In this document: one piece after another, positions 2,004-47,317 of the stretch
Layout of the letters: each line of letters begins with the position of its first letter
How positions within the stretch are numbered: position 1 is the stretch's first letter
Assembly (NCBI GenBank): GCA_040882355.1
Contig: JBBEBM010000057.1
Location: 6,823 to 70,822 of the forward strand
Direction: 5' to 3'
Source: Dehalococcoidia bacterium
Lineage (GTDB): Bacteria > Chloroflexota > Dehalococcoidia > DSTF01 > RBG-16-68-14
DNA: 64,000 nt
Translations under genes and position numbers: made by a program
Notes under the pieces: model-generated
Database searches by the model: none
Told to the model about the DNA's origin: nothing
The model's input: only the letters and a program-made list of their open reading frames with translations

Positions 2004-2509
2004 GTCGCCGGTGTGCCACGGGGCGCGTGCCTGGTGAAGTCTGGTCTGCGCCGATTGCGGGGAGGAGACGACGGTGCCGTTCGTGCCCCGGCTCAACCGG
2101 CCAGTGTACTGCGGTTCCTGCTTCCAACGGGACCGCTCCGGGGCGGTCGCCTGACCCGGCGCACGAGGTTCCTCCAAAAAACCGAAGGATCGCTGGCACG
2201 CTCGCAGTCGGGCTCGGCGACGTAACGGAGGACCTAAAGACGTTCAAGGAGATCATCGAGGACCAGGAGCCCGACAAGGACATCATGGTTCAGCGCGCGT
2301 CCGCCGGGTAACGCGGGGACGGACGGCACGCCACGGCACCGGGTGCCAGGAAACGAACCTCCCTCGTCGTTTGGCATTCGAATCCTTCGAGCGAGCCACA
2401 ATTGAATCTAGAGACCGCATGGATCAGGCGGCATGATTGAACATACGTTGAAATGAGTAGATAATTCAAAGGTAAATAGTTTATGGTCCCAGCTGAAGGG
2501 AGGGAGCCC

Positions 2510-3409
2510 ATGCTAAGTAACTGGCTCAAGCGGGCGGTCTTTGTGGGACTCGCCGCAGGAGCAGCGCTCTTTGCAGGTGCCTACCCGGCAGGCGCGGCAA
2601 CCGCGCCGTCATTGGGTTCGGCGCAGAGTTTCGCGGTCCTGGGTGGCACCACGGTGACCAATACCGGCCCGACCACCATCACCGGCGACCTCGGTGTCAG
2701 CCCGGGTTCCGCGATCACTGGCCAGGCGAGCATCACGCTCACGGGAGCGACGCACACAGCCGATGCGGTGGCTCTCCAGGCCCAGAACGATGTCACCGTT
2801 GCCTACGACGCGCTCACAAGCGAGCCGTGCACAGAGACGAACCTGGCGCTGAGCGGAGCGACGCTCACGCCGGGCGTGTATTGCTATACGTCGTCGGCTC
2901 AGTTGACCGGAACACTCACGCTCAACGGCGCTGGGGTCTACATTTTCAAGACAGTGAGCACGCTCACCACCGCAGTGGGCTCGACTGTGGCCTTGATCGG
3001 CGGCGCCCAGCCCTGCGACGTGTTCTGGCAGATCGGCAGCTCCGCGGACCTCTTTACAGACACGACGTTCGTAGGGAACATCCTCGCGCTCACGAGCATC
3101 AACCTGCAGAATGGCACAAGCATCGACGGTAGAGCCCTGGCACGAAATGGGGCCGTGACGATGGACAGCAACACCGTCTCCAACTCGAGCTGCGTCGCTG
3201 GGACAACGCCCACCACGACTCCGGCCGCGTCGACCCCTGGCGCGACCCCAACCGGCGCGACCCCGGCCGCCGGCTTCCCGCCCACCGGCGCAGGGGCCCA
3301 AGGGGATGATGGTATGCCCTGGGTAGAGGTCCTCGTCGCCTGGTCCCTGGCCGGCCTCGGCGTCCTGGCCCTGGCCCTCCGCCGTAGAGTGCGTAGCCAC
3401 CGCGCGTAG
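2510..3409 (+). CDS. Ice-binding-like (DUF3494) beta-solenoid surface protein with LPXTG-like sorting signal
   Basis: An internal ATG at 2510 follows a GGGAGGGAG Shine-Dalgarno. The signal peptide ends AGA/ATAP. Hallmark motifs are SAQSFAVLGGTTVTNTGPTTITGDLGVSPGSAITG and GRALARNGAVTM. The C-terminus is FPPTG, then a TM helix, then an RRRVRSHRA tail. Confidence 0.7.
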   Translation: MLSNWLKRAVFVGLAAGAALFAGAYPAGAATAPSLGSAQSFAVLGGTTVTNTGPTTITGDLGVSPGSAITGQASITLTGATHTADAVALQAQNDVTVAYDALTSEPCTETNLALSGATLTPGVYCYTSSAQLTGTLTLNGAGVYIFKTVSTLTTAVGSTVALIGGAQPCDVFWQIGSSADLFTDTTFVGNILALTSINLQNGTSIDGRALARNGAVTMDSNTVSNSSCVAGTTPTTTPAASTPGATPTGATPAAGFPPTGAGAQGDDGMPWVEVLVAWSLAGLGVLALALRRRVRSHRA

Positions 3410-8444: not shown

Positions 8445-9191
8445 TCACTGCGCCCCTCCGAGAGCGAACGACCTGATAATGGCCTCCACGGTGGCTAGGT
8501 TGACATTCCCTTTCGGCACGACGTATCCAGTGAGCTTGATTACGGTGTCGGGCGAGAAGTCGATAATGTAGGACAAGCCGAGCCACTGCGCCCGCGAAGT
8601 AGGATTAATCCCCGACTGCCGGCACTCCACGGCGCGGTGCCCCAGAAGGGTGACGATGCCAGCCGTGTCGGGCCGGTCGGTCGGGAGCGACAGTGGGTCC
8701 GGGCGCTCGCAGTTTTCGATAATCGCATTCACAGGGAATCCGTCCGACCTCTCGAAGCTCACCTCGACGTCTGCCATGCCAGGTGTGCTGCCTTCGCCAG
8801 GCTGACCCGCGCTCCGCACGACTTCTGGGCTGATGACGCTGAGAGGCGGCTCCTCCTCCAGTGTCCAGTCCGGCGGGTACTTGAAGCTGTATCCATCGGG
8901 GCTGGTGTAGGTCTTCCAGTCCGACGTGTCGATGCCCGTGGGCGGCGTCGGGCTGGGCGCGAGGACATAGGTGGGGGTAATCGTTGGCTTGGCTGTAGGC
9001 CTGACCACCTGGTTCGGGGGCGAGAGGGCGGTGGAGGTGGCGGCGGGCGTGTCGCCGGTCTGGGCGCGGTCCGCGTCCTCTTCCTGACCAACCTGGACCG
9101 CGAGGTAGATGCCGGTCGCAAGCCCGCCTGCCGTCAGCGCAACCGCACCGACTTTGAGTAGTCCAGCCAATGCACTCGATAACATCGCCAC
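8445..9191 (-). CDS. Membrane-anchored extracytoplasmic protein (paralogue of 46565..47317)
   Basis: The N-terminal ~90 aa are nearly identical to ORF 46565..47317 (MAMLS.ALAGLLKVGAVALTAGGLATGIYLAVQVG.EEDA.RAQT...). DNA differences between the two copies are mostly synonymous. The C-terminal domains differ. Confidence 0.8.
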   Translation of the reverse strand: MAMLSSALAGLLKVGAVALTAGGLATGIYLAVQVGQEEDADRAQTGDTPAATSTALSPPNQVVRPTAKPTITPTYVLAPSPTPPTGIDTSDWKTYTSPDGYSFKYPPDWTLEEEPPLSVISPEVVRSAGQPGEGSTPGMADVEVSFERSDGFPVNAIIENCERPDPLSLPTDRPDTAGIVTLLGHRAVECRQSGINPTSRAQWLGLSYIIDFSPDTVIKLTGYVVPKGNVNLATVEAIIRSFALGGAQ

Positions 9192-9402
9192 CCGCTCCTT
9201 AACGCCATATCTGCCATGTGGCCCTCATCTCTGAGAGAGTAGCTACTATAGCACTATTGAGGGCGGGCCCGTCAACCCCCCGCGAGCGTCGTTTTTCGCG
9301 CGGTTCTTCCCTACGAACGCCTCGATCTCACCCACCTCGCCGTGCCGGAGGGGCGGGCGCTCTGGCGCGAAGCTGGCGTCACGCAGGAGGCGTCGATGTC
9401 CT

Positions 9403-23623: not shown

Positions 23624-24187
23624 GTGTCGCTGGACATCGGAACCGGCGACGGACGCGCCGTGTACGAGCGCGCCCAGCGCGAGGCGTCTCGATTCTTCAT
23701 CGGGCTGGACCCGGCGCCGGGCATCGAGTACTCGCGGCGGGCGGGTCGCAAGCCGGCGAAGGGCGGCGTGGCGAACGCGCTGTTTGCAGTCGGGTCGGTG
23801 GAGTCGCCGCCCGCTGAGTTGGCAGGCGTCGCGGGTGAGCTAACGGTCCTCTTTCCCTGGGGTACGCTGCTGCGCGCGTTCGCGCTGCCCGATGTCGATG
23901 CGCTCCGCAACGTGCGGCGCTTGTGCCGCGACGGCGCGTCGCTGGAGGTGGTGCTGTCGTACGCGGAGCGCGACCGCGGTGAGCTGGCGCGGCTCGGGCT
24001 GCCGGGGCTGTCTCAGGCGCACCTCGAGGGCGCCCTGACGCGGGGCTATCGAGACGCCGGCTTCCGCGTGGCCAGCGTCGAGACGCTCACGCGCGACGAG
24101 CTGCGCGCGCTGCCGTCGACGTGGGCGAAGCGGCTGGCGTTCGGCCGGCCGCGTGAGGCGTGGCGGGTGCGGGCCGTCGCCGGGTAG
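23624..24187 (+). CDS. NpmA/KamB-family 16S rRNA (adenine1408-N1)-methyltransferase homologue (N-terminally short)
   Basis: Matches the family along its whole length: DIGTGDGR, FFIGLDP, KPAKGGVANALF, ELAGVAGELTVLFPWGTLL, GLPGLS, FRVASVE, STWAKRLAFGRPRE.WRV. Both A1408-stacking Trp positions are present. GTG start with an in-frame stop 30 nt upstream. Confidence 0.72.
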   Translation: MSLDIGTGDGRAVYERAQREASRFFIGLDPAPGIEYSRRAGRKPAKGGVANALFAVGSVESPPAELAGVAGELTVLFPWGTLLRAFALPDVDALRNVRRLCRDGASLEVVLSYAERDRGELARLGLPGLSQAHLEGALTRGYRDAGFRVASVETLTRDELRALPSTWAKRLAFGRPREAWRVRAVAG

Positions 24188-24244
24188 GCGGAGGCGAAAG
24201 CCGAGGACAGCTCCGCCGGCTGGCTGTTGCGCGAAGGAGGCTGA

Positions 24245-24435
24245 GGGCCATAATGCGGGAGGTGGCTGGACCGAGGCCACCGTTAGACGGCCGTAGTACA
24301 CGGCTGGGGCGGTCTGTTAGCGATCAGCGCGGCGTCGACATCTCGACCAAGCGGAAGGCGGCTCCCGCCGCACATCGCGGGGGTCATCGCTCTCGTTCTC
24401 CTCGCCTTCCTGTTGCGGGTGGCCTGGGTGGCCGC
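24245..24435 (+). repeat. 191-bp block shared by GT-C paralogues 1 and 2 (copy 1)
   Basis: Identical to 26438-26628 except one base (24282 g versus c). Spans the SD-ATG at 24253, the G5 run at 24379-24383 and the first TM helix of the enzyme. Confidence 0.95.
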
Positions 24436-26050
24436 GGTCGACCTAGACCCGTTCTCTCCAGAGCCGCACAACGTCACCTTCTACGACGGCGCCTTCTACT
24501 ACAACGCAGGGCGCGGGCTCGCTGACGGCGCGGGTTATACGGGCCTGAACGGCGAGGCCACAAACCTGTTCCCGCCGGGCTATCCGCTGGTCCTTGCCGG
24601 CTCATTCCTGCTGTTTGGCGACGGTCTGATGGTTGGCAAGCTTGTAAACGCATTCTTGGGCGCGGTGACGGTCGTGCTCGTCTACGCACTGGCGACGAAG
24701 GTGGTAGATCGCCGCGTCGGCCTGGTGGCGGCCGCCATCATGGCGGTCTACCCCGCGCAGATCCTCTCCTCCGCTCTGCTGATGACCGAAGTCCTCTTCA
24801 CCGGCCTCGCCGCGCTTCTCTTGCTCCTCCTGGTTGCCTGGACGGCTGAGCGACGGGCATCGACCTGGCAACTGCTGACCCTGGGCCTGTTGGTCGGCTT
24901 CATGACCCTGGTGCGCACAGAGGCCCTGCTGCTCATCCCGGCGCTTCTGGTGCTTTGGAAGCTCCTCACGCCTTCTTGGCAAGAGACCGGGCGATACGCC
25001 GCGCTCCTCCTGATCGCGGCGCTCCCGCTGCTGCTCGCGTGGTCGATGCGCAACTATGTCGAGCTGGGCGACCTAGAGCTGCGTTCTGGTGGAGGGACCG
25101 CCCTACGTATGGGCATCAGCCCGAACTTCGATGCGCACCTGACGGCGTGGTACTTTGGCGTGGCGCCGCCACCCATCGCCGATACGCTCCGCCACTTCGC
25201 GACCCATCCCTGGGATGTGGGCGTTCTCGCGCTCCGGAAGCTGGCCTTCCTGTTTCGAGACGACGCGGACGTTGTCAAGGAGACTCAGAAGTACGTGCCT
25301 CAGCCGCTCTCGGACGGAGCGGGGGCTCGTTGGTCGGCCCTGACCAACTGGTACTACTACGCCGTTGGCGTGTTAGCGATGATTGGCATCGCGGCGTGGC
25401 TCCGAACTCTGGACAGGCGGCGCCTGGTCGTGCTCTGGTTCGTCGCGAGCTGGAGTCTTATCTACCTGCTCTTCGTGCCCCAAGGGCGGTACCACCTTCC
25501 CGTCGTCCCGGTCCTTGCCACCACGGCCGCCTTCGCGGCAGTCAGTGCGTGGCAGTTCGCGCAGGACGGAGGCGTTGCGCGCGCCGTGGCCTCGCTCCGC
25601 CACGAGCTCCTGCCGCCACAACCAGCGCTCGCGCCGGTGCTTGCGTTCGCCGTCCTGGTCGTCGCCATAGCGACGACGATCGCTCAAGGGCGCCCCGACG
25701 CCATCGCCCCTTACCGAGACATCGCGCGCCGAAACGATCTCTTGAAGCTCGCCGGATCGGTCAGCGACTTCTCGCAAAGATTCGGCGGCTTCCCCTCCAC
25801 CGGCGGGCTTGACCAGAGCGAGCCGCTCTGTGTGTCTGACAGCGATCTTGGTTGCGTCTTGCGGGCCGTCATGCGAGATGAAGACCTCCCTGTCGATCCA
25901 TTTGGTGACCCCGAGAAGAACGGCTACTGGTTCGCCTCTGACGGCCAAACGGTTGTCCTCTACGCGCTCCGGGAAACCGGCGCGTATCCCTCCTGTCCGA
26001 GTCCGCCGCTACTCGGCAAGAAGGACCTCCAGTGTCTTCGCCTACCTTAG
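24413..26050 (+). CDS. GT-C fold membrane glycosyltransferase (GT39/PMT_2, ArnT-like) with C-terminal TM + pseudopilin (GspG)-like domain, paralogue 1
   Basis: Multi-TM ORF with FYDGAFYYNAGRGLADGAGY loop 1 and PPGYPLVLAG...VLVYALA. The C-terminus shows LAGSVSDFSQRFGGFPSTGG...LPVDPFGDPEKNGYWFASDGQTVVLYA. The ORF-track start is a TTG, and TM1 continues in frame upstream without a canonical start. Confidence 0.75.
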   Translation: MRVAWVAAVDLDPFSPEPHNVTFYDGAFYYNAGRGLADGAGYTGLNGEATNLFPPGYPLVLAGSFLLFGDGLMVGKLVNAFLGAVTVVLVYALATKVVDRRVGLVAAAIMAVYPAQILSSALLMTEVLFTGLAALLLLLLVAWTAERRASTWQLLTLGLLVGFMTLVRTEALLLIPALLVLWKLLTPSWQETGRYAALLLIAALPLLLAWSMRNYVELGDLELRSGGGTALRMGISPNFDAHLTAWYFGVAPPPIADTLRHFATHPWDVGVLALRKLAFLFRDDADVVKETQKYVPQPLSDGAGARWSALTNWYYYAVGVLAMIGIAAWLRTLDRRRLVVLWFVASWSLIYLLFVPQGRYHLPVVPVLATTAAFAAVSAWQFAQDGGVARAVASLRHELLPPQPALAPVLAFAVLVVAIATTIAQGRPDAIAPYRDIARRNDLLKLAGSVSDFSQRFGGFPSTGGLDQSEPLCVSDSDLGCVLRAVMRDEDLPVDPFGDPEKNGYWFASDGQTVVLYALRETGAYPSCPSPPLLGKKDLQCLRLP

Positions 26051-26079
26051 TAGCCCGCTGCGACTGAGACAGCGCGCAC

Positions 26080-26322
26080 CTAATCAGGGGACTTGGCCAG
26101 CCCCGGCTGGAACACCGCGGCCGAAGGGCACTCCTTGCGCAACGGGCACACGTCGCACTTGGGGCGCTGGGCGTGGCAGGTGCGACGGCCGTGCTTGATG
26201 AGCTGGATGTGGAACGGGTAGACGAGGTCGGGCGGGACGAGGGCTTCGAGCCAGACATGCGCCTGCTCCGCCGTCGACTTGTCGGGCACGAGGCCGAGGC
26301 GCCGGGCGACGCGATGGACGTG
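26080..26322 (-). pseudogene. 3'-terminal fragment of endonuclease III (nth) left at a duplication junction
   Basis: Encodes HVHRVARRLGLVPDKSTAEQAH..HIQLIKHGRRTCHAQRPKCDVCPLR, near-identical to the C-terminus of the full nth at 30385..31086. It lacks the N-terminal two thirds. Confidence 0.8.
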
Positions 26323-26437
26323 GGCGAAGCGGCTGGCGTTCGGCCGGCCGCGAGACGTCTGGCGCCTGCGCGCGGTGGCCACGTAGCCGGGCGCTGCCGG
26401 AGCGGACGGGCGCGCGACTAGCCGTTGCGAAGAAGGC

Positions 26438-26628
26438 GGGCCATAATGCGGGAGGTGGCTGGACCGAGGCCACCCTTAGACGGCCGTAGTACACGGCTGG
26501 GGCGGTCTGTTAGCGATCAGCGCGGCGTCGACATCTCGACCAAGCGGAAGGCGGCTCCCGCCGCACATCGCGGGGGTCATCGCTCTCGTTCTCCTCGCCT
26601 TCCTGTTGCGGGTGGCCTGGGTGGCCGC
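26438..26628 (+). repeat. 191-bp block shared by GT-C paralogues 1 and 2 (copy 2)
   Basis: See 24245-24435. Here the SD-ATG is at 26446 and the G5 run at 26572-26576. Confidence 0.95.
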
Positions 26629-28246
26629 CGTCAACCCCGATCCCTTGCCGGAGGATCCGTACGACGCGGCCTTCTACTACAACGCCGCTCGCAGCCTTGC
26701 CGGCGGTGACGGCTACGTTCGCCTGGACGGCGAGACCACGAACCTCTACGCCCCCGGCTACCCGCTCCTGCTCGCCGGCGCCATCTCCGTGTACGGCGAT
26801 GATCTGCTCTCCGCCAAGCTGCTCAACGTCTTTTTCGGCGCGGCGACGGTCGGGCTCGTCTATGTGATCGGCGCTCGGGTGGCGACGCGCGCGGTCGGCC
26901 TCACCGCAGCGGCGATCCTGGCCGTCCTTCCCGGACAGATCATCTTCACGACCGTGCTCATGACTGAGGTTGTCTTCGCCGCGCTGGCCTCGATGCTGGT
27001 GCTCCTGATCATGCTCTGGACGGCGGACCGGCGGCCTTCAAGCTTGCAGGTCCTGGCCCTGGGCCTGCTGATCGGCGCGATGGCGCTGATCCGGACGGAA
27101 ACGCTGCTCCTGGTACCCGCGCTCGCCGCGCTCTGGCTGTTCTTCGCGCCGAGCCCGCGCGAGCTCGCGCGCTGGCTCGCGGTCCTCGCCGTCGGCGTGA
27201 CGCTGCCGCTGGTCCCGTGGCTGGCGCGCAACTACGTCGAGTTCGACACCCTGACGCTGCGCGAAGGCGCCCCGGCGGCGCTGCGCATCGGGCTCAGTCC
27301 GGACTTCGACGAGCAGCTCGCCGGCGCGTTCTTCGCGCAGGAGCCGCCGTCGTACGCGGAGCTTGCCCGGTACTATCGCGACTACCCGCTGGACGCGGGC
27401 ATCTTCGTGTTGCGAAAGTGGGCGTACCTCTTTGGCCACGAGGACGACCTCATCCGGTGGCTGCAGTGGCACCAGCCACCACCACTTTCGTCGGACGCCG
27501 CGGCGCGCTGGGCGGACGCGTCGGTGTGGTCCTACTACGCCGTCGGGCTGCTCGCAGTCGGGGGAACGGCGGGGTGGCTCGCGCGGCTGGACCGGCGTCG
27601 CGCGGTTATCCTCTGGTTCGTCCTGAGCTGGGCCTCGGTCTTCCTGCTCTTCGCGCCGCAGGGCCGCTATCACTTCCCGCTCGTCCCCATGCTCTCGATC
27701 CTCGCCGCCTACACGCTGGCCGGCTGTTGGGGATTCGTTCGCCGGCAGATCGCCGCCCGGACGGCGAACGTCGCCGCACCCGAAAGGCCAGCGCTGCGCT
27801 GGCGCGCTGTGCTGCCCGTGCTTGCCTTCGCGTTGCTCGTCATTGCGCTGGCGACGACGATCCTTCGCGGCTTCCCGGACTCCGAGGCGCGCACTCGAGA
27901 CCTCCTGCGCCAGGCGGACCTTTCGCGGCTCAGCCAGGCGCTCACAGACTACTCGAGCGAACACGATGGCTTCCCTTCGACCGGCGGGCTCGACCGGGGC
28001 GAGCCGCTGTGCGCGCTGGGCGCGGGGGCAGGCTGCGAGCTGCGAGACGTGCTCAAGCACGACCCTCCCAGCGATCCGCTCGGAACGGCGGAGGAGCACG
28101 GCTACTGGTACGCGTCCGACGGCGACACGGCCATCATCTACGCGCGGCGCGAGACCGACGAACCGTGGGCCGGGCCGGCCTGCGCCTCACCTTCGGCGCT
28201 CAGCGATCGCGGCGAGCTCCAGTGTGTGGTGGTTTCGAGGGACTAG
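26606..28246 (+). CDS. GT-C fold membrane glycosyltransferase with C-terminal pseudopilin-like domain, paralogue 2
   Basis: Collinear with paralogue 1, with roughly half the residues identical by eye. C-terminus: LSQALTDYSSEHDGFPSTGG...PPSDPLGTAEEHGYWYASDGDTAIIYA. Confidence 0.75.
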   Translation: MRVAWVAAVNPDPLPEDPYDAAFYYNAARSLAGGDGYVRLDGETTNLYAPGYPLLLAGAISVYGDDLLSAKLLNVFFGAATVGLVYVIGARVATRAVGLTAAAILAVLPGQIIFTTVLMTEVVFAALASMLVLLIMLWTADRRPSSLQVLALGLLIGAMALIRTETLLLVPALAALWLFFAPSPRELARWLAVLAVGVTLPLVPWLARNYVEFDTLTLREGAPAALRIGLSPDFDEQLAGAFFAQEPPSYAELARYYRDYPLDAGIFVLRKWAYLFGHEDDLIRWLQWHQPPPLSSDAAARWADASVWSYYAVGLLAVGGTAGWLARLDRRRAVILWFVLSWASVFLLFAPQGRYHFPLVPMLSILAAYTLAGCWGFVRRQIAARTANVAAPERPALRWRAVLPVLAFALLVIALATTILRGFPDSEARTRDLLRQADLSRLSQALTDYSSEHDGFPSTGGLDRGEPLCALGAGAGCELRDVLKHDPPSDPLGTAEEHGYWYASDGDTAIIYARRETDEPWAGPACASPSALSDRGELQCVVVSRD

Positions 28247-28425
28247 ACAGTCGCATCGCCATGGTGTGGTGTTTCACACCAACGGCCGACGGGCCTTCGC
28301 GGCGGCTTCAGGACTGACCGGCCCTGACAGCGAGCAGCTTGCGGGGCCGCGGCGCAATGACATAAAGTAGGCCGCTGGCTGACATTCAGCCGCCAGCCGT
28401 CCATCGCACGCAGATAGGGGGAATC

Positions 28426-30267
28426 GTGGCTGCTGCGGCTCCACACAGGGGGCTCCTACCACAGTTCCGGCCTGCGCCCGAACTGCGCTGGCTCGTCGCA
28501 CTCTTCCTGCTCGCCTTCGCCTTGCGAGCGGCGTGGGTGGTGTCGGTGAACCCGGACCCGCTGCCCCGCTATCCCTACGACCCCGCGTTCTACTACAACG
28601 CGGCGCTGGGCCTTGCCGACGGCGAAGGCTATCGCGACGTCGATGACCAACAGACGAACCTTCTTCCGCCGGGCTATCCGCTGGTGCTGGCGGGCTCGTA
28701 CCTCCTGTTCGGCGACGACTTGCTTGTCGGCAAGCTGATGAACGCGTTCTTCGGCGCGGCGACGGTCGTGCTTGTCTACGCGCTCGCGACCAGGGTCGCC
28801 GACCGGCGGGTGGGCCTCGTTGCGGCGGGCATCATGGCGCTCTTTCCAGGCCAGATCTTCTTCACCACCGTGCTTATGACCGAGACCTTCTTCGTGGCCC
28901 TGACCGTCCTCTTCCTCCTCCTGGTCTTGATCTCGACGGTGGAGAGGCAACCAGCGAACTGGGAGCTCCTGGCGCTTGGCGAGCTCGTCGGCTTCATGGC
29001 GCTCGTTCGGGCGGAAGCGATGTTGCTGGTGCTGGCGCTCGCGGTGCTCTGGATGGTGCTGACCGCCTCGTGGCGGGACCTCGGGCGTTACATGGCTGTG
29101 TTCCTGATCGGAGTGCTCCCCCTGCTGTTGGTGTGGTCGGTGCGGAACTACACGGAGCTCGGCGACGTTGAGGTGCGTTCAGGGGGCGGGACCGCGTTGG
29201 CTATGGGTCTCAGTCCGAACTTCGACGAGCAATTGGCGGGCACGTTTGTCGGCGGGACGGCTCCGCCCCTCAGCGACACCTTCCGCCACTATGGAACGCA
29301 TCCCCAGGACATTGCGCTCGTACCGCTCCAGAAATTGTCCTACCTGTTTGGGGGCGAAAACGACGTTTTCACCTGGATCCAGTGGCACGTCCCGCGGCCG
29401 CTTTCGCCCGGCGCGGCGGCTCGCTGGTCAGACCTCGTCAACGGCTACTACTACGCGGTCGGCGTGCTGGCTGCGCTTGGCATCGCGGCCTGGCTGGCGG
29501 CGCCGAACAGGGCACGCATGACCGTCCTCTGGCTCCTGGCCGCCTGGAGCGGCTTCTATCTGATCTTCGTCCCTCAGGAGCGGTACCACTTTCCGGTCAT
29601 TCCCCTGCTCTCGGTCGCTGCGGCGTTCGCTCTGGTCCACGGGCTGCGGTTCGTGAGAGACGGAGGTGCCCGCCGTACACTGGCAACGCTCCGAACAGGC
29701 GGCTTCGCGGCCGCATTCGCGCCGGAGGCGCTGAACCCATCTGGCCGCGGCACGGCGAGGAGGAGCCGCGACGAAGCGGGGCCGGCCAAAGCCCCGGTGC
29801 TCTCGCGCCGGAGCCTCGTCCTGCTGTTCGGGTTCACCGTGCTGGTGCTGGCCATGACGGCCGTGGTTCTTCAAGGCTTTGTCGACTCCGCAGCCGCGTA
29901 TCGGGACTTCCGACGCCAGGTCGATCTCCAGACGCTCGGCAAGACCATCGACAACTACCACACGCTGTACGGCGGCCTGCCTTCGACCGGCGGGATCGAC
30001 CAGAGCGAGCCGTTCTGCGTCTCGGAAGGGAACAAGGCATGCGAGTTCCGAGCACTCTGGCCCGGGCCTGACTTCCCGGTTGACCCTTCGGGCGAACAGA
30101 ACGGCTACTGGTACGGCTCGGACGGCCAGTCGGCCGTCGTGTATGCGCTGCGGGAAACCGACACGTGGTCAGGCCCTCTCTGTGAGTGGGCGCCGCCGCA
30201 GCTCGCCGGCAGGGGCGACTTGCAGTGCCTCCGTCTGCCCCTACCTGCAGCCGGCGAGAACGAATGA
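28426..30267 (+). CDS. GT-C fold membrane glycosyltransferase with C-terminal pseudopilin-like domain, paralogue 3
   Basis: GTG start after an AGGGGGA SD. Intact N-terminus MAAAAPHRG...LRWLVALFLLAFALRAAWV. Longer linker. C-terminus: LGKTIDNYHTLYGGLPSTGG...FPVDPSGEQNGYWYGSDGQSAVVYA. Confidence 0.8.
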   Translation: MAAAAPHRGLLPQFRPAPELRWLVALFLLAFALRAAWVVSVNPDPLPRYPYDPAFYYNAALGLADGEGYRDVDDQQTNLLPPGYPLVLAGSYLLFGDDLLVGKLMNAFFGAATVVLVYALATRVADRRVGLVAAGIMALFPGQIFFTTVLMTETFFVALTVLFLLLVLISTVERQPANWELLALGELVGFMALVRAEAMLLVLALAVLWMVLTASWRDLGRYMAVFLIGVLPLLLVWSVRNYTELGDVEVRSGGGTALAMGLSPNFDEQLAGTFVGGTAPPLSDTFRHYGTHPQDIALVPLQKLSYLFGGENDVFTWIQWHVPRPLSPGAAARWSDLVNGYYYAVGVLAALGIAAWLAAPNRARMTVLWLLAAWSGFYLIFVPQERYHFPVIPLLSVAAAFALVHGLRFVRDGGARRTLATLRTGGFAAAFAPEALNPSGRGTARRSRDEAGPAKAPVLSRRSLVLLFGFTVLVLAMTAVVLQGFVDSAAAYRDFRRQVDLQTLGKTIDNYHTLYGGLPSTGGIDQSEPFCVSEGNKACEFRALWPGPDFPVDPSGEQNGYWYGSDGQSAVVYALRETDTWSGPLCEWAPPQLAGRGDLQCLRLPLPAAGENE

Positions 30268-30276
30268 GCCCGGGCG

Positions 30277-30346
30277 TCGCGGAGCGGGCAGGCGCCGCAC
30301 CTGGGGCGCTGGGCGCTGCAGGTGCGGCGGCCATGCTTGATGGGGT
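30277..30346 (-). pseudogene. Second short relic of the nth 3' end
   Basis: ~70 nt, roughly 80% identical by eye to 30408-30477. Encodes ...IKHGRRTCSAQRPRCGACPLRDA. Confidence 0.6.
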
Positions 30347-30384
30347 GGTGCACCCCCCCGCCCAGGGCGGCTCGCGCGCCGCCC

Positions 30385-31086
30385 CTACATCGCGTCAGCC
30401 GATGGGCACGCATCGCGCAGCGGGCAGGCGTCGCACTTCGGCCGCTGGGCGTGGCAGGTGCGACGGCCGTGCTTGATGAGCTGGATGTGGAACGAGTAGA
30501 CGAGGCCCGGCGGCACCATCGCCTCCAGGAGGTCGTGCGCCTGCTCCGCCGTCGACTTGTCGGGCACGAGGCCGAGGCGCTTCGCCACGCGGTGGACGTG
30601 CGTGTCGACGGGCAACGCAGGCCGCCCGAGCGCGAAGAGCAGCACGCAGGCCGCCGTCTTCGGGCCGACGCCGGGCAGGCTGCGAAGCCACGCCCGCGCT
30701 TCGTCCATCGGCAGCTCGCGCAGGAACGACAGGTCGAACGAGCCGACGCGCGTCCACACCTCGCGCAGCATCGCCTGGAGGCGGGGCGCTTTCGTCGGGG
30801 CGAGGCCGCCCGGCTGGATGGCGGCCTCGATCGCCTTCACGTCGGCGTCGAGGAGGGAGGGCCAGTTGGGGAAGGCGTCGAGCAGGCGGATGAAGGCGCG
30901 TCCTGAGTTGGTGTCGGACGTGTTCTGCGAGAGCAGCGTGAGGACGAGCTCGGCGATGGGGTCGCCGTGGGGCCGCCAGGGCACGGTGCCGTAGGTGGCG
31001 TCGAGCACGTCGACGACGCGTTGCGGCGTGGGGGCCCCGGGCGGGCGGCGGCGGGGTCTGGTGGTGGCGGGCGCGCGGCGGGGCAT
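30385..31086 (-). CDS. nth: Endonuclease III (HhH-GPD, 4Fe-4S)
   Basis: The internal ATG at 31086 gives 233 aa. Motifs LPGVGPKTAACVLLFALGRPALPVDTHVHRV and C-x6-C-x2-C-x5-C. Confidence 0.9.
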   Translation of the reverse strand: MPRRAPATTRPRRRPPGAPTPQRVVDVLDATYGTVPWRPHGDPIAELVLTLLSQNTSDTNSGRAFIRLLDAFPNWPSLLDADVKAIEAAIQPGGLAPTKAPRLQAMLREVWTRVGSFDLSFLRELPMDEARAWLRSLPGVGPKTAACVLLFALGRPALPVDTHVHRVAKRLGLVPDKSTAEQAHDLLEAMVPPGLVYSFHIQLIKHGRRTCHAQRPKCDACPLRDACPSADAM

Positions 31087-35898: not shown

Positions 35899-38619
35899 CT
35901 AGCGGTACGGCCGCAGCACGAGCCGCGCCGGGACGCCCGACGTGTCGGTGACGCCGACGGTCCCGCCCGCGAACGGCCCGCGCGTCATGCGAAAGCGGAC
36001 CTCGATGGCATGGTCGCCGGCAGCGAGCGGCAGCAGGTAGACGTACTGTGTGTAGCTGCCATCGGGCGCGGGGTTGACAAGGCCCTGCACGACACGTCCG
36101 TCGACCGTGAGCTGCACGTCGCTGCCGGGCGAGTCGACCTTCACGACGTACCGGGCCGGCGTCGAGACGCGCCAGAGCGCCGACCAGGTGTCGTCCCAGA
36201 GCACCCAGCCGCCTTCCGGCGGCGGCAGGCGGAGCAGCGCGCGGGCCGCCGTCTCGTGCGCGACGTGAGGCTCGAAGTCGAAGCGAGCGACGGTCTTCGT
36301 CGGGCCGGTGGCATCGCCGAAGCTGCGCGTGTGCAACCAGCCGTTCACGTCCGGCAGCGCGAAGAAGTCGTTGCGAGTGAGCGGCAGCGGCGGCCCGCCG
36401 TCGGACGCGACCCAGCGAAGGCGCGCGCCTTCGCCGGCCCGCTGGAGCGTCGCCTCGACGACGTGCCAGCCTTCGGCGAGCGACATCGCCGTGGTGGTAA
36501 ACGACAGCGCGAACGACGCGGATGTCCTCTGCCCGTCGATTCGCACCTCGCCCTCCGTGCCGGAAAGCGCCAGCGCCCAACCCTCCTCCGCCTGTGCGGG
36601 CACGCGGACGAGCGCCCGAAGCTCCACAGCGCCTGCCGGGGGCCTTTCGAAGGTCATGTTCGTGGGATCGACCACTTCGGTGACGGCCTGGCCGGCTGCG
36701 TCGGTGTAGCTCGCGGTGACGCCTCGACGTTCATCCAGGTCCTCCGGCGCCAGCTCGTAGCCGGCGATGTCGAACGCCCCGGCCGGGCCGTGCAGCTCGT
36801 AGTCCGGCGCGCCCAAGCCTGGCATCGCCCGCGCGAGCGATGCGCTCCAGCGGACGACGTTCTGCGGCGTGCCGGTCAGCACGATCGTCGCCGGGCGCTC
36901 CGAGGTGGCCGGCGGCGGCCAGACCTCCTCGCCGGAGGGCGAAAGGGTGCCCTCCAGGCCGCGGCAGACGAAGTAGTGGTTCTGCCACGCCACCCGCTGC
37001 TCCGTCTCGGTGACCAGGGGTAGCGCGAAGCCGTTGCCCTGCTGCGACCACTGCGCCGCGTACGCGAAGTCGTCGTCAGGGCGGCCGCGCAGATAGTGGC
37101 AGGCCGCGTACGTCTCCGAGTCCGGGATCGAGTACGCCGCAAGCACGCCGGGGTCGGTGGCGTTCGCGCGCTGGATGAAGACGTTCGTTGTGAAGACAAA
37201 GCAGACCGCCGCGATCAGCCCGAAGACGAGCACCGGCAGCACCGCCGAGCCTCGACGTTGCACGAGCGTCCATGCGTCGTCGGCGAGCAGGCCGATCAGC
37301 ACGATGCCCGGCACCAGGAACGGCACCAGCTTCCACGCGCCGAAGTTCTGCACCAGCAGCGGCAGCGCGACCGACGCGCCAACAAACCAGGCCAGGAACA
37401 GCAGCCGCCACGGCCGCCAGAAGCCCAGCGCGGCGACCCCCACCGAGAGCAGCAGCAGCACGCTCGTGCCCCGGTCGATCACGCCGCGCGCGTCGATCGA
37501 CCCGGTGAGGGGGAACGTGGGTCCGACGAACGGCGTGTAGATCTCGCCCACCCAGCGGAGCTGCTTCTCCCACTGCGGCGAGAGGTAGCGATCGAGGCCC
37601 GTCGCCTCGCGGCCCTGCTGCTGGCGCTTGAGCGACGCGGCGTAGATGTGCTCGCCGTGATGACGGCGAGCCATCATCGGCGTGATCGCGATGCCGATCG
37701 CCAGTACGAAGACGATCGCGGGTAACCACGCGCGTCTGGCGATCGCCCAGGCCCGCTCGCCCAGGGCGCGGGGCGCGGCCGGCGGCCAGACGAGCGCCCA
37801 CAGCAGCGCCATCGCGACGAACAGCGCGGCTGCGAGAGGCACCGCCTTGAACGACTCGTATTCGTACGAGAGCGCCGCTGCCAGGACGCCGACGAGCATC
37901 CACCAGAGAGGATTCGCTGTCTTCAGCCCGCGCACCAGCGCGAGGGCGAAGACCACGGATGCGAAGATGCCCGGCTGAAAGTGCACGCTGGTATCGGCCA
38001 GCGTGTGCACTGAGCCGAAGATCGCAGTCGTGAAGAGCGCGACGGGCGGCCGCACCAGCTCGCGCATGAGGAGGTAGAACGGTACAAGGGACGCAATGCC
38101 GAGGATGACGAAGGGCAAACGCAGACCATTCGTGTCGTCCCCGAACGCCCAGATGCCGAAGACCGTCGAGTAGCGCACGAGGGGGTAGCTGAGCGGGCGC
38201 GCGCCGCCTTCGATCGCCGAGGCCACGCCCGCGTTGATCCCTTCCTCGCAGCAGAGGAGGTTTGACGGCGGCAGCGTCCCGTAACGCCAGACGCGCACGA
38301 AGACGCCCATGGCGACGACGCCGGCCAGCAACGCCATCTCCAGGGGGTGCGCGCGCGCGTAGGCGAGGGCGCGGCCCGGCCAGCTCAGCACATCGAGCAG
38401 CGAGCGATTGGCCGCGCCCGTGAAGAGCAAGAGGAACGAGAGCGCATACCAGGGCAGCACATCGTCGAAGGCGTGCTGATCGCCGTAGTAGACACGGTAC
38501 GCGTGATAGCCGGTGAACGCCGCTCCCGCGAGCAGCGCGCCCCGTCCGAGCCAGAGTAAGACGTCGGGCGCGCTCAGGTGGCCGGCAGACCAGAGGCGGC
38601 TGAGCCGTTCGATAAGCAC
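35899..38619 (-). CDS. Large GT-C (ArnT/PMT-like) membrane glycosyltransferase with two C-terminal PA14-like modules
   Basis: 906 aa. The N-terminal ~480 aa are polytopic (about 12 TM) with a CCEEGINAG loop-1 acidic motif. C-terminal segments include EVRIDGQRTS...LAEGWHVVEATLQRAGEGARLRW and DVQLTVDGRVV...LAAGDHAIEVRF. Confidence 0.65.
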   Translation of the reverse strand: MLIERLSRLWSAGHLSAPDVLLWLGRGALLAGAAFTGYHAYRVYYGDQHAFDDVLPWYALSFLLLFTGAANRSLLDVLSWPGRALAYARAHPLEMALLAGVVAMGVFVRVWRYGTLPPSNLLCCEEGINAGVASAIEGGARPLSYPLVRYSTVFGIWAFGDDTNGLRLPFVILGIASLVPFYLLMRELVRPPVALFTTAIFGSVHTLADTSVHFQPGIFASVVFALALVRGLKTANPLWWMLVGVLAAALSYEYESFKAVPLAAALFVAMALLWALVWPPAAPRALGERAWAIARRAWLPAIVFVLAIGIAITPMMARRHHGEHIYAASLKRQQQGREATGLDRYLSPQWEKQLRWVGEIYTPFVGPTFPLTGSIDARGVIDRGTSVLLLLSVGVAALGFWRPWRLLFLAWFVGASVALPLLVQNFGAWKLVPFLVPGIVLIGLLADDAWTLVQRRGSAVLPVLVFGLIAAVCFVFTTNVFIQRANATDPGVLAAYSIPDSETYAACHYLRGRPDDDFAYAAQWSQQGNGFALPLVTETEQRVAWQNHYFVCRGLEGTLSPSGEEVWPPPATSERPATIVLTGTPQNVVRWSASLARAMPGLGAPDYELHGPAGAFDIAGYELAPEDLDERRGVTASYTDAAGQAVTEVVDPTNMTFERPPAGAVELRALVRVPAQAEEGWALALSGTEGEVRIDGQRTSASFALSFTTTAMSLAEGWHVVEATLQRAGEGARLRWVASDGGPPLPLTRNDFFALPDVNGWLHTRSFGDATGPTKTVARFDFEPHVAHETAARALLRLPPPEGGWVLWDDTWSALWRVSTPARYVVKVDSPGSDVQLTVDGRVVQGLVNPAPDGSYTQYVYLLPLAAGDHAIEVRFRMTRGPFAGGTVGVTDTSGVPARLVLRPYR

Positions 38620-38760
38620 TCGCCCTTCCGGCGCCCGCCTGAACGCGGGCTAGCCTGCGATGCGGGGCACGCCTCGGCCCTCCGCTCGCATCGATTGTAG
38701 GCCCTGCGGGGTTCTAGCGCCGCATCGAAGGGGATCAACGGCCGTCAGGTCGTCGAACGA

Positions 38761-46463: not shown

Positions 46464-46564
46464 AAATAGTCGGCCAAGGTCGTGACATCCCCCCCCCCTA
46501 GTCGGTGCTATAATATCCACACCGGACCGGCTAGGCGGACTGGCTGGACGGCTAGCAGGAGCGG

Positions 46565-47317
46565 TTGGCGATGCTATCGGGTGCATTGGCAGGATTACTC
46601 AAGGTCGGCGCGGTCGCGCTGACCGCAGGCGGGCTTGCCACCGGCATCTACCTCGCTGTGCAGGTCGGTGAAGAAGAGGACGCGAACCGAGCCCAGACCG
46701 TCGAGACGCCCTCGACGATCTCCACCGCGCTCTCGCCGCCGAACCAGGTCGTCAGGCCGACGATCACCCCTACGTACGTCCTCGCGCCGAGCCCAACGCC
46801 GCCCACCGGCGTCGACACGTCAGACTGGAAGACGTACGAGAGCCCGCTGGGGTTCACGCTGAAGTATCCGCCGGGTTGGGCGATCAAGGACTACCAGTCA
46901 GAGGGACTGGCGCCCGGAACCGTGAAGATCCTGAACGAGGCCGCGACCCGCGGCTTTGCCGCCCGGTTGGGTGCCGGAGAGTTGGAAGGAGCGGAGAGCG
47001 GAGAGGCGTGGCTAGACATCTCACCTGACGCCTTCCCTACATTCGATGCCGCCGGAATCATCCACGCCTGCGCCCCTGAGCGTGTCTTGGAGGACCCGCG
47101 GGAGGTTTCACTAGGGGGCCAGCCCGCCGTCCACTGTGTGCAAGAGGGCGCCTCGCCATTCGCGCCAGAGACGACGCTCCGCACGGATACTTACTGGGTT
47201 CGTCTGCCTTCCGGCAGGGTTGCGGGCATCAGTGCCTACACAGTTGATGGCGACGCAGCAACGATTCAGATCGTGGGTGCTGCGGCGGCGACGTTCTGGG
47301 TGCAGGCGAAACCGTGA
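46565..47317 (+). CDS. Membrane-anchored extracytoplasmic protein (paralogue of 8445..9191)
   Basis: See 8445..9191. Preceded by the extended -10 TGCTATAAT at 46506-46514. Confidence 0.8.
   Translation: MAMLSGALAGLLKVGAVALTAGGLATGIYLAVQVGEEEDANRAQTVETPSTISTALSPPNQVVRPTITPTYVLAPSPTPPTGVDTSDWKTYESPLGFTLKYPPGWAIKDYQSEGLAPGTVKILNEAATRGFAARLGAGELEGAESGEAWLDISPDAFPTFDAAGIIHACAPERVLEDPREVSLGGQPAVHCVQEGASPFAPETTLRTDTYWVRLPSGRVAGISAYTVDGDAATIQIVGAAAATFWVQAKP

What the first reader, a model, noticed from the sequence alone, without database searches (positions are those of the whole stretch)
24253..30267. Three tandem GT-C glycosyltransferases, each fused to a pseudopilin (GspG)-like C-terminal domain
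Seen:
- Three collinear paralogues (24413..26050, 26606..28246, 28426..30267) have a polytopic GT39/PMT_2-type body. Loop 1 reads (Y/F)YD.AFYYNA...G.GY and is followed by PPGYPL.LAG.
- After the last core helix comes a linker and one further hydrophobic helix. A ~110-aa domain then follows, with the pattern D(L/F)..L...(I/L).(D/N)(Y/F)....(G)G(F/L)PSTGG .. C....C .. (L/F)P.DP.G....GYW(Y/F).SDG...V.YA.

Established: in type II secretion and type IV pilus major pseudopilins, a TM helix is followed by '..L..AL..Y....G.YP' and 'LP.DPWG..Y.Y.S.G'.

Inference:
- A lipid-linked-sugar transferase carrying its own pilin-fold module on the outer face is an architecture I do not recognise as described.
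- Triplication with divergence (about half the residues identical by eye) suggests three donor or acceptor specificities.
- The pilin-like module may bind the acceptor, for example pilins or envelope proteins, or scaffold a complex.
Basis: partly seen in the sequence, partly recalled or inferred. Interest (0 to 1): 0.78.

Follow-up and report, generated by a model that had tools for sequence, protein, structure and literature searches.

The report
Membrane glycosyltransferases carrying pseudopilin-head domains
Three neighbouring genes each encode a membrane sugar-transferring enzyme whose outer end is a domain descended from the head of a secretion-system pilin; this pairing recurs unnoticed across Chloroflexota bacteria, and what the pilin-derived part does is still unknown.

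Summary
Three collinear paralogues (51-57% identical, dN/dS 0.26-0.44) are PMT_2-type GT-C glycosyltransferases. Each ends in an Arg-rich cytoplasmic linker, an eleventh membrane helix and a ~115-aa outer domain with four invariant Cys.

That domain has no direct Pfam, NCBIfam or PDB sequence hit. Indirect evidence for pseudopilin descent is strong:
- A profile of it finds 1,128 proteins among 1.84 billion representatives, including a true GspG-type prepilin (E 9.5e-12).
- Many of these match Pfam T2SSG over the same stretch.
- A family profile hits only GspG/EpsG/PulG in the PDB (best E 2e-4).
- The AlphaFold model is a long helix plus beta-sheet, and its top Foldseek hits are pilins, though none is significant.

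The module lacks the prepilin cleavage motif, so it is pilin-derived, not a pilin.

The architecture is not unique. In Chloroflexota MAGs the same head is fused to at least 24 GT-C clusters, or sits on ~200-aa anchored proteins with Pro/Thr/Ser-rich stalks encoded beside GT-C genes. The window's form, with the helix abutting the head, is rare.

I found no annotation or literature. Acceptor or partner recognition is an inference. ORF1 and ORF2 have CTG where relatives have their start codon.

The parts
24314..26050 (+). Paralogue 1. GT-C (PMT_2) glycosyltransferase with a C-terminal membrane helix and pseudopilin-head domain. It is 545 aa from the first canonical start (TTG 24413), or 578 aa if the CTG at 24314 is used.
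   Evidence: ORF. PMT_2 E 5.1e-14. The in-frame TM1 lies upstream of the TTG. The CTG is homologous to the starts of ORF3, P0005 and P0007.
26507..28246 (+). Paralogue 2, same architecture. It is 546 aa from TTG 26606, or 579 aa from CTG 26507.
   Evidence: (PMT_2 E 1.6e-8).
28426..30267 (+). Paralogue 3, 613 aa. It has a canonical GTG start preceded by GGGGG-N4. This is the copy whose structure was predicted.
   Evidence: (PMT_2 E 2.6e-13). AF2 full length: pLDDT 90.7, pTM 0.89. Foldseek matches STT3, ArnT, AglB, PglB and Pmt4.
24485..24487 (+). Conserved Asp of the first outer loop of paralogue 1 (D25). The equivalents are 26663-26665 (D20) and 28579-28581 (D52). This is the presumed catalytic or donor-binding acid of GT-C enzymes.
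   Evidence: Invariant and nearly invariant in 41 relatives. Positions. The catalytic role is inferred from knowledge of GT-C enzymes.
25628..25690 (+). Extra (eleventh) membrane helix of paralogue 1, directly abutting the head.
25709..26047 (+). Pseudopilin-head domain of paralogue 1 (residues 433-545, Cys 473, 481, 528, 541).
27806..27871 (+). Eleventh membrane helix of paralogue 2.
27890..28234 (+). Pseudopilin-head domain of paralogue 2 (residues 429-543, Cys 469, 477, 526, 540).
29812..29877 (+). Eleventh membrane helix of paralogue 3 (residues 463-484). It follows an Arg-rich, low-confidence linker at 412-460.
29896..30237 (+). Pseudopilin-head domain of paralogue 3 (residues 491-604, Cys 531, 539, 586, 601).
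   Evidence: AF2 of the module: pLDDT 84.1, a helix plus four strands. Top Foldseek hits are PulG, GspG, EpsG and type IV pilins. Profile hits.
24245..24437 (+). About 190 nt of leader plus the TM1 coding stretch. It is almost identical to 26438-26630 upstream of paralogue 2, while the rest of the two genes is about 70% identical. This is a gene-conversion tract that carries the CTG start position.
   Evidence: (D2). RNA folding is not unusual (z -0.30). No Rfam hit.
26085..26390 (.). Scar of the tandem duplication between paralogues 1 and 2. It holds a copy of the 3' end of the endonuclease III gene (26085-26322, 81% identical to 30363-30600) and of the 3' end of the upstream methyltransferase gene (26303-26390, 80% identical to 24104-24191).
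   Evidence: (D4, D6, D9).

Best explanation
**What the genes encode.** Each gene encodes a GT-C-fold membrane glycosyltransferase of the PMT_2 superfamily.
- The core has ten membrane helices.
- The conserved Asp of the first outer loop and an RYH motif lie on the outer face.
- The enzyme is presumed to take a sugar from a polyprenyl-phosphate carrier.

**Topology of the C-terminal module.** The core ends in the cytoplasm. An Arg-rich cytoplasmic linker follows, then an eleventh membrane helix that leads straight into a ~115-aa outer domain with probably two disulfides. This last part has the topology of an uncleaved prepilin.

**What the head is.** The head is homologous to the globular head of the type II secretion major pseudopilin GspG. 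It has lost the prepilin-peptidase / methylation motif and sits inside a 545-613-aa enzyme. It is therefore a pilin-derived accessory domain, not a filament subunit.

**Proposed role (inferred, not shown).** The head holds the acceptor or a partner protein next to the catalytic loop, much as TPR or MIR domains are thought to do in other PMT-type enzymes. Likely partners are the small membrane-anchored proteins of Chloroflexota that carry the same head on a Pro/Thr/Ser-rich stalk. The three old, selectively maintained paralogues would then serve different acceptors or donors.

**Origin.** The locus arose by two rounds of tandem duplication of a unit that ran from the 3' end of the upstream gene to the 3' end of nth.
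For: **Shown: the enzyme core**
- PMT_2 is above its gathering score in all three.
- The full-length AF2 model has pLDDT 90.7 and pTM 0.89. Foldseek gives 30 matches at E <= 1e-3, to the STT3, ArnT, AglB, PglB, Pmt and ALG families.
- Asp, T-E, R-x-E and RYH are conserved in all three paralogues and in relatives.

**Shown: the head is a GspG-head homologue**
- A profile of seven modules finds 1,128 proteins at E <= 1e-3 among 1.84 billion representatives.
- P0154 is hit at E 9.5e-12 from the membrane helix onward. It has KKGFTLIELVV, N_methyl at E 1.7e-15 and TIGR01710 GspG at 98 bits, above the 88.85 cut-off.
- 25 of 85 short hits and 7 of 33 long hits match Pfam T2SSG at E <= 1e-3, in the same region.
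- The family profile A8 hits only GspG, EpsG and PulG chains in the PDB (2e-4 to 9.6e-3).
- The AF2 module model (pLDDT 84.1) is a long helix plus a four-stranded sheet. 13 of its top 14 Foldseek hits are pseudopilins or type IV pilins.

**Shown: a link between heads and GT-C enzymes**
- 24 of 33 long hits carry PMT_2.
- In the ten Chloroflexota-type loci the head is fused to a GT-C core in L008, L009, L010, L012 (twice) and L016. Elsewhere a standalone head gene lies beside GT-C genes: L007, L009, L010 (3-nt gap), L012 and L013.
- Standalone heads have stalks of median 35 aa with 41% Pro/Thr/Ser.

**Shown: the paralogues are maintained**
- dN/dS is 0.26-0.44 in core and head, at dS about 1.

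**Inferred**
- Topology from the positive-inside rule applied to the sequence and the helices.
- Disulfides from the four invariant Cys.
- A lipid-linked donor, from family knowledge and from the GT2 + GT2_TM_C gene next to relative P0005.
Against: - None of the three heads hits T2SSG, GspG or any PDB chain directly. The link to pseudopilins is transitive.
- Foldseek E-values for the module are 0.19 or worse, and TM-scores are 0.4-0.5.
- No binding or catalytic function has been tested. The acceptor could be a lipid or a polysaccharide.
- No standalone head gene, GT2 donor synthase or pilus gene lies in the window.
- ORF1 and ORF2 have no canonical start codon that would include TM1, so their expression as full enzymes depends on CTG initiation.
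Confidence: 0.6

Rival explanations
1. The head is the thing that gets glycosylated, not a binding module. On this view the standalone anchored head proteins with Pro/Thr/Ser stalks are surface glycoproteins made by the neighbouring GT-C enzymes. The fused heads are then cis-substrates, or simply surface-exposed decorations that travel with the enzyme.
For: Standalone heads lie next to GT-C genes. Their stalks are 41% Pro/Thr/Ser, the kind of sequence that actinobacterial Pmt enzymes O-mannosylate (my own knowledge). Type B fusions also have such a linker before the head (L008).
Against: In the window's proteins the helix abuts the head with 0-3 residues and no Pro/Thr/Ser stalk, so there is no obvious acceptor segment. 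The head itself is under purifying selection in all three copies.
Confidence: 0.2
2. The helix plus head is an oligomerisation device. Pilin-like helices and heads would pair with each other to make homo- or hetero-oligomers of the three paralogues, as PMT enzymes work as dimers.
For: Pilin N-terminal helices associate in membranes and filaments (my own knowledge). There are three co-located paralogues. Pmt1-Pmt2 and Pmt4 dimers are among the fold matches.
Against: Most family members (types B and C) have the head without an abutting helix. The conserved unit is therefore the soluble head, which in pseudopilins contributes little to assembly. Nothing was tested.
Confidence: 0.12
3. The module is a working pseudopilin. 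A prepilin peptidase would cut it off at the helix and a pilus or secretion machine would polymerise it, with the glycosyltransferase acting as a carrier or modifying it first.
For: The topology is that of a prepilin. ORF3 has ...LLFG/FTVLV..., which faintly recalls G/FTLIE. The profile aligns the helix with that of a true prepilin.
Against: There is no N_methyl match. The Gly and the Glu at +5 are absent or not conserved among the seven close relatives. Six hydrophobic residues separate the basic stretch from the Gly in ORF3. No peptidase, ATPase or platform gene lies in the window.
Confidence: 0.03
4. ORF1 and ORF2 are decaying copies. They lost their start codon and only ORF3 is a working enzyme.
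For: There is no ATG, GTG or TTG between the upstream stop (TAG 24284 / 26477) and the middle of TM1. Public gene calls start inside TM1 (P0003 and P0006).
Against: dN/dS of 0.26-0.44 over core and head at dS about 1 shows long purifying selection. All conserved residues are kept. CTG sits at the homologous start position with the same GGGG-N4 spacing as ORF3's GTG. A recent conversion tract keeps the two 5' ends identical.
Confidence: 0.15
5. The pseudopilin resemblance is chance or convergence in a small Cys-rich domain.
For: There are no direct hits for the window's heads, and Foldseek E-values are not significant.
Against: The E-values are library-wide: 9.5e-12 to a true GspG-type prepilin, and 1e-9 to 1e-28 to family members that match T2SSG over the same stretch. 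The PDB profile search returns pseudopilins only.
Confidence: 0.02

Closest known systems
Type II secretion major pseudopilin GspG / PulG / EpsG (Pfam T2SSG PF08334, NCBIfam TIGR01710)
   Same: The head is homologous by profile searches. The motifs D(L/I)..(L/I)..AL..Y....G.YP.T and LP.DP.G..Y.Y.S.G are shared (alignment). A membrane helix leads into a long helix packed on an antiparallel sheet.
   Different: It has no G/FTLIE cleavage-methylation motif. It is not at the N-terminus of a small protein but at the end of a 545-613-aa enzyme. It has four invariant Cys. No secretion or pilus genes are nearby. It is not a member of the GspG family: TIGR01710 gives no hit at all for the head of ORF3.
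PMT_2-type GT-C enzymes with a C-terminal protein-binding domain (bacterial PMT_2 + TPR proteins; eukaryotic TMTC1-4, from my own knowledge)
   Same: The body plan is the same: a PMT_2 membrane core followed by an accessory domain on the non-cytoplasmic side. PMT_2 + TPR proteins appear among the relatives of the core (P0024, P0030, P0034, P0037, P0039).
   Different: The accessory domain here is a pseudopilin head reached through an extra membrane helix, not TPR repeats.
ArnT (GT83), STT3/AglB/PglB (GT66) and Pmt1/2/4 (GT39)
   Same: These are the best structural matches of the full-length model (E 5e-7 to 8e-4, probability 1.00). Public sources name relatives 'ArnT-like'.
   Different: TM-scores are only about 0.4. 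The window's proteins pass none of the curated cut-offs of these families. The likely host is Chloroflexota, where a lipid A acceptor is not expected (inference).
Pilin-specific membrane glycosyltransferases TfpW, TfpO/PilO and PglL (from my own knowledge; not tested here)
   Same: They are membrane enzymes that use lipid-linked sugars on the outer face and act on pilin-fold proteins. This is the nearest known functional link between the two protein classes.
   Different: They are separate proteins from their pilin substrates. PglL and PilO belong to the Wzy_C/O-antigen-ligase type, not PMT_2. No homology was tested here.
Actinobacterial protein O-mannosylation (Pmt with the Ppm1 polyprenyl-phosphate-mannose synthase; from my own knowledge)
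   Same: A GT-C enzyme glycosylates Pro/Thr-rich stretches of exported proteins. A GT2 + GT2_TM_C gene lies next to the relative P0005. Pro/Thr/Ser-rich stalks occur on the standalone head proteins.
   Different: The window's proteins have no PF02366 match. The actinobacterial enzymes have no pilin-like domain.

Membership tests
GT-C glycosyltransferases, PMT_2 superfamily (PF13231) | Match to the PMT_2 profile above Pfam's gathering score | tested here: met
   53.2, 35.4 and 50.9 bits against a cut-off of 26.1.
GT-C glycosyltransferases, PMT_2 superfamily (PF13231) | Polytopic GT-C fold | tested here: met
   AF2 pLDDT 90.7, pTM 0.89. Foldseek probability 1.00 to STT3, ArnT, AglB, PglB and Pmt4.
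GT-C glycosyltransferases, PMT_2 superfamily (PF13231) | Conserved acidic residue in the first outer loop just after TM1 | tested here: met
   D25, D20 and D52 in (Y)D.AFYY. The Asp is invariant in the three paralogues and nearly invariant in 41 relatives. Only its presence was tested, not catalysis.
GT-C glycosyltransferases, PMT_2 superfamily (PF13231) | Use of a polyprenyl-phosphate-linked sugar donor | not testable with these tools
   Only indirect evidence: a GT2 + GT2_TM_C gene next to relative P0005. There is none in the window.
GT39 protein O-mannosyltransferases (PF02366; NF058602) | Match to the PMT family profile or the NCBIfam equivalog | tested here: not met
   No PF02366 hit at E <= 1 for the three proteins. 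NF058602 scores 17.8 bits against a cut-off of 800. Some more distant head-bearing relatives do match PF02366 (P0077, 49.4 bits).
ArnT (GT83) | Match to a curated ArnT model; lipid A acceptor | tested here: not met
   No ArnT model appears among the NCBIfam hits. The similarity is at fold level only (5f15, E 2.4e-6, TM about 0.4). The acceptor is not testable.
Type IV pilin-like proteins / T2SS major pseudopilin GspG | N-terminal prepilin cleavage and methylation motif (G/FxxxE; PF07963, TIGR02532) | tested here: not met
   No N_methyl hit. The helix reads LAFAVLVVAIA, LAFALLVIALA or LFGFTVLVLAM, without a conserved Gly or Glu.
Type IV pilin-like proteins / T2SS major pseudopilin GspG | Direct match of the head to T2SSG (PF08334) or TIGR01710 | tested here: not met
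   No family at E <= 10 for the three modules. No NCBIfam hit for the ORF3 head. No PDB chain is hit by a single sequence or by the 7-sequence profile.
Type IV pilin-like proteins / T2SS major pseudopilin GspG | Homology of the head to GspG heads through profiles and intermediate sequences | tested here: met
   The A4 profile hits the GspG-type prepilin P0154 at E 9.5e-12. 32 of 118 family members match T2SSG at E <= 1e-3. The A8 profile hits only GspG, EpsG and PulG in the PDB, best E 2e-4.
Type IV pilin-like proteins / T2SS major pseudopilin GspG | Pilin fold: hydrophobic helix continuing into a long helix packed on an antiparallel sheet | tested here: inconclusive
   The AF2 secondary structure fits. 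The top Foldseek hits are PulG, GspG, EpsG and type IV pilins, but E is 0.19-3 and TM is 0.4-0.5.
Type IV pilin-like proteins / T2SS major pseudopilin GspG | Small free-standing subunit encoded with, and assembled by, a secretion or pilus machine | tested here: not met
   The module is the C-terminal part of a 545-613-aa enzyme. No pilin motif, ATPase, platform or peptidase gene was found in the window. The rest of the genome is unseen.

The most novel reading that the evidence does not exclude
GT-C enzyme plus pseudopilin head is a conserved, undescribed surface-glycosylation system of Chloroflexota. On this reading the pilin-derived head is a recognition handle. Head-bearing enzymes dock head-to-head onto small anchored proteins that carry the same head on a Pro/Thr/Ser stalk, and glycosylate them. 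A filament subunit would thus have been turned into an enzyme-substrate matching device. The window's form, with its full prepilin-like topology, would preserve the original fusion of a GT-C gene with a downstream pilin gene.
Probability: 0.2. Interest if true: 0.75.

Novelty: new variant of a known kind. Interest (0 to 1): 0.55.

Why it matters
GT-C enzymes choose their acceptors through appended domains that are poorly understood outside eukaryotes. Pilin-fold proteins are almost always thought of as filament subunits. A pilin head recruited as a fixed accessory domain of a glycosyltransferase, and repeatedly encoded beside such enzymes, would be a new use of the pilin fold. It would also give a concrete handle on envelope glycosylation in Chloroflexota, a large and mostly uncultured phylum whose surface biology is little known. 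In practical terms, the head family (1,128 detectable members) has no model in Pfam or NCBIfam that catches the window's version. These proteins are therefore currently annotated only as 'ArnT-like' or hypothetical.

Tried and rejected
**Searches that found nothing**
- Direct Pfam, NCBIfam and PDB sequence searches with the three modules and with the 7-sequence profile found nothing.
- The word-indexed protein search with the ORF3 module alone found nothing, not even itself. The exhaustive profile search was needed.

**The near-identical leader of ORF1 and ORF2**
- I considered an RNA element or a programmed frameshift from the out-of-frame ATG at 24253.
- Rfam finds nothing in the window.
- The fold is no better than shuffles (z -0.30).
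- No promoter-like site, and only one terminator-like site, which lies inside ORF3 and is fewer than shuffles give.
- The simplest reading is a gene-conversion tract with a CTG start.

**Other readings rejected**
- An assembly artefact or misjoined genes is rejected. The reading frame is continuous in seven independent sequences, and the copies differ by 43-49%.
- A lipoprotein or sortase-type anchor for the module was not pursued.

**Negative results in the window**
- A search for more heads in the window found only these three.
- A pilin-motif regex over all six frames found none.
- Six literature searches found nothing on this architecture.

**Not attempted or not possible**
- The viral fold library was not searched, because it is not relevant here.
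- Model coordinates are not exposed, so the position of the head relative to the active site and the disulfide geometry could not be measured.

Full report
**1. The observation**

The window holds three collinear ORFs at 24413..26050, 26606..28246 and 28426..30267 on the + strand, exactly as reported.
- All three match Pfam PMT_2 above its gathering score. NCBIfam gives only weak, sub-threshold similarity to archaeal STT3 and a putative glycosyltransferase family.
- The proteins are 51-57% identical.
- The two internal Cys are seven residues apart, and there are four invariant Cys in each head.

**2. Gene starts**

ORF3 has a GTG start preceded by GGGGG-N4. For ORF1 and ORF2 the first ATG/GTG/TTG after the upstream stop lies in the middle of the first membrane helix.
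- The helix IAGVIALVLLAFLLRVAWV is encoded in frame upstream.
- Aligned with ORF3 and with the relatives in L001 and L002, the start-codon position is CTG in both copies (24314 and 26507), with GGGG-N4 before it.
- About 190 nt around this point are almost identical between copies 1 and 2, whereas the genes are otherwise about 70% identical.
- I found no sign of an RNA element. I read this as a recent gene-conversion tract.
- Either the two genes start at CTG, or they have lost TM1. Long purifying selection (dN/dS 0.26-0.44 at dS about 1, in both core and head) favours working genes.

**3. Origin of the triplet**

- Between copies 1 and 2 lie an 81% copy of the 3' end of the endonuclease III gene and an 80% copy of the 3' end of the upstream methyltransferase gene. 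A further nth fragment follows copy 3.
- A relative (P0007, locus L002) has a single copy followed by nth, an RF-1-domain gene and a histidine kinase. The same neighbours occur in the window.
- The triplet therefore arose by tandem duplication of a unit reaching from one flanking gene into the other.

**4. The enzyme body**

- The full-length AlphaFold model of ORF3 is confident (pLDDT 90.7, pTM 0.89).
- Its best PDB matches are STT3 subunits, ArnT, AglB, PglB, Pmt4 and ALG enzymes, with probability 1.00 and TM-scores near 0.4. It is a GT-C enzyme, but I cannot assign it to GT39, GT83 or GT66.
- I applied the positive-inside rule to the helices. This gives a basic N-terminus inside, TM1, an acidic outer loop with the conserved Asp, and ten core helices. 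The last helix ends inside at RFVRDGGARR.
- An Arg-rich, low-confidence linker (412-460) follows, then helix 461-483 going out, then the head outside. This topology is an inference. It fits the four Cys.

**5. What the C-terminal module is**

Direct searches fail. Only four other proteins in 5.8 billion clusters share the whole architecture closely: P0002, P0004, P0005 and P0007.

A profile of the seven modules, run exhaustively against 1.84 billion representatives, finds 1,128 proteins at E <= 1e-3 and 132 at E <= 1e-10.
- One hit is P0154 (E 9.5e-12), aligned from the membrane helix onward. It begins KKGFTLIELVV, matches N_methyl, and passes NCBIfam's cut-off for GspG.
- Of 85 short hits, 25 match Pfam T2SSG at E <= 1e-3. 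Of 33 long hits, 7 do.
- In every protein I checked individually that had a T2SSG match, that match lies inside a stretch matched by my profile.
- A profile of 38 diverse heads, including the window's three, hits eight PDB sequences, all of them GspG, EpsG or PulG. The best E is 2e-4, and the alignment runs from the long helix to the ...DP.G..Y.Y.S.G strand.
- The AlphaFold model of the module (pLDDT 84.1) is helix, kink, long helix and four strands. 13 of its 14 best Foldseek matches are pseudopilins or type IV pilins, led by PulG, but none is significant.

I conclude that the head descends from a GspG-type pseudopilin head. This rests mainly on sequence profiles, with the fold consistent.

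**6. Why it is not a pilin**

- There is no cleavage-methylation motif, and neither Gly(-1) nor Glu(+5) is conserved among the seven close relatives.
- The module lies at the end of a large enzyme.
- The window has no pilin motif and no secretion or pilus gene.

**7. The wider family**

All ten loci found in species-representative genomes are from Chloroflexota / Dehalococcoidia MAGs. One exception is labelled Bathyarchaeia but has the same GC content. The head comes in three settings:
- Type A, the window's form: the core ends inside, then a membrane helix abuts the head with 0-3 residues between. Only two clusters at 50% identity score below 1e-30.
- Type B: a GT-C with an outer domain of about 140 aa, a short Pro/Thr linker and then the head. 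24 of the 33 long hits have PMT_2. In P0092 and P0093 both PMT_2 and T2SSG pass Pfam's gathering scores.
- Type C: proteins of about 200 aa with an N-terminal anchor, a stalk of median 35 aa that is 41% Pro/Thr/Ser, and then the head.

Type C genes lie beside GT-C genes in five of the six loci long enough to tell. In L010 the gap to a type B gene is 3 nt, and in L009 the head gene sits between two GT-C genes. Fusion in some genomes and adjacency in others is classic evidence of a functional link.

Public names for these proteins are only 'hypothetical protein' or 'ArnT-like glycosyltransferase'. Six literature searches found nothing on the combination.

**8. How it most likely works**

Shown:
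- The proteins are GT-C enzymes.
- The head is a pseudopilin-head homologue.
- All three copies are under purifying selection.
- Heads and GT-C enzymes are genomically coupled across a phylum.

Inferred:
- The enzymes use polyprenyl-phosphate sugars. A GT2 + GT2_TM_C gene lies next to relative P0005.
- The head sits on the outer face near the catalytic loop and recognises the acceptor or a partner, as accessory domains do in other PMT-type enzymes.
- The likeliest partners are the type C proteins.

Rivals: the heads are themselves the glycoprotein substrates; the module drives oligomerisation; the module is a cleavable pilin (unlikely); copies 1 and 2 are decaying.

**9. Verdict**

- The claim of an unrecognised architecture is half right: it is common in Chloroflexota metagenomes and partly visible to Pfam, but it is unnamed and unstudied.
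- The functional ideas are reasonable but untested.
- This is a new variant of a known kind, a GT-C enzyme with an unusual accessory domain, and is of moderate interest. The conserved enzyme-head partnership and the rare full-prepilin topology of the window's form raise that interest.

Noticed in passing
24245-24437 and 26438-26630: A tract of about 190 nt is almost identical upstream of and into paralogues 1 and 2, while the genes are otherwise about 70% identical. It carries CTG at the position where relatives have their start codon. It is probably recent gene conversion; no RNA structure signal was found.
   Followed up: partly
26085-26390 and 30274-30348: Duplication scars: fragments of the 3' end of the endonuclease III gene, and of the 3' end of the upstream methyltransferase gene, lie between and after the paralogues.
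   Followed up: partly
23624-24187 (+): The gene just upstream matches the NpmA family of 16S rRNA (adenine1408-N1) methyltransferases (E 2.9e-54). Members of this family confer aminoglycoside resistance. Here it is in an environmental, probably Chloroflexota, genome.
   Followed up: no
35902-38649 (-): A fourth, 916-aa GT-C-like protein has a weak PMT_2 match (25.0 bits, just under the cut-off) and no pseudopilin head. It lies next to a histidine kinase / response regulator pair.
   Followed up: partly
2480-3406 (+): A secreted or anchored protein with an Ice_binding-like domain (E 1.5e-52).
   Followed up: no
8448-9224 (-) and 46556-47314 (+): Two paralogous ~255-aa proteins share the N-terminus ML(S)(S/G)ALAGLLKVGAVALTAGGLATGIY. 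Neither has a Pfam match.
   Followed up: no
L007 6869-7453, L012 1717-2307, L015 9683-10339, and proteins P0058, P0060, P0062, P0065: Standalone head proteins share short motifs right after their membrane anchor, either ELCGRE(D/E) or FD(L/V)TTGG. These might be a processing or attachment signal of unknown kind.
   Followed up: no
L016 1531-4461: A 976-aa GT-C plus head lies on a contig binned as Candidatus Bathyarchaeia, with GC 65% like the Chloroflexota loci. It is possibly mis-binned, or else a transfer to archaea.
   Followed up: no
proteins P0154 and P0138 (not in the window): P0154 is a tandem of two complete GspG-like pilins in one 334-aa protein. P0138 (755 aa) has six matched stretches to the head profile behind a single N-terminal helix.
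   Followed up: no
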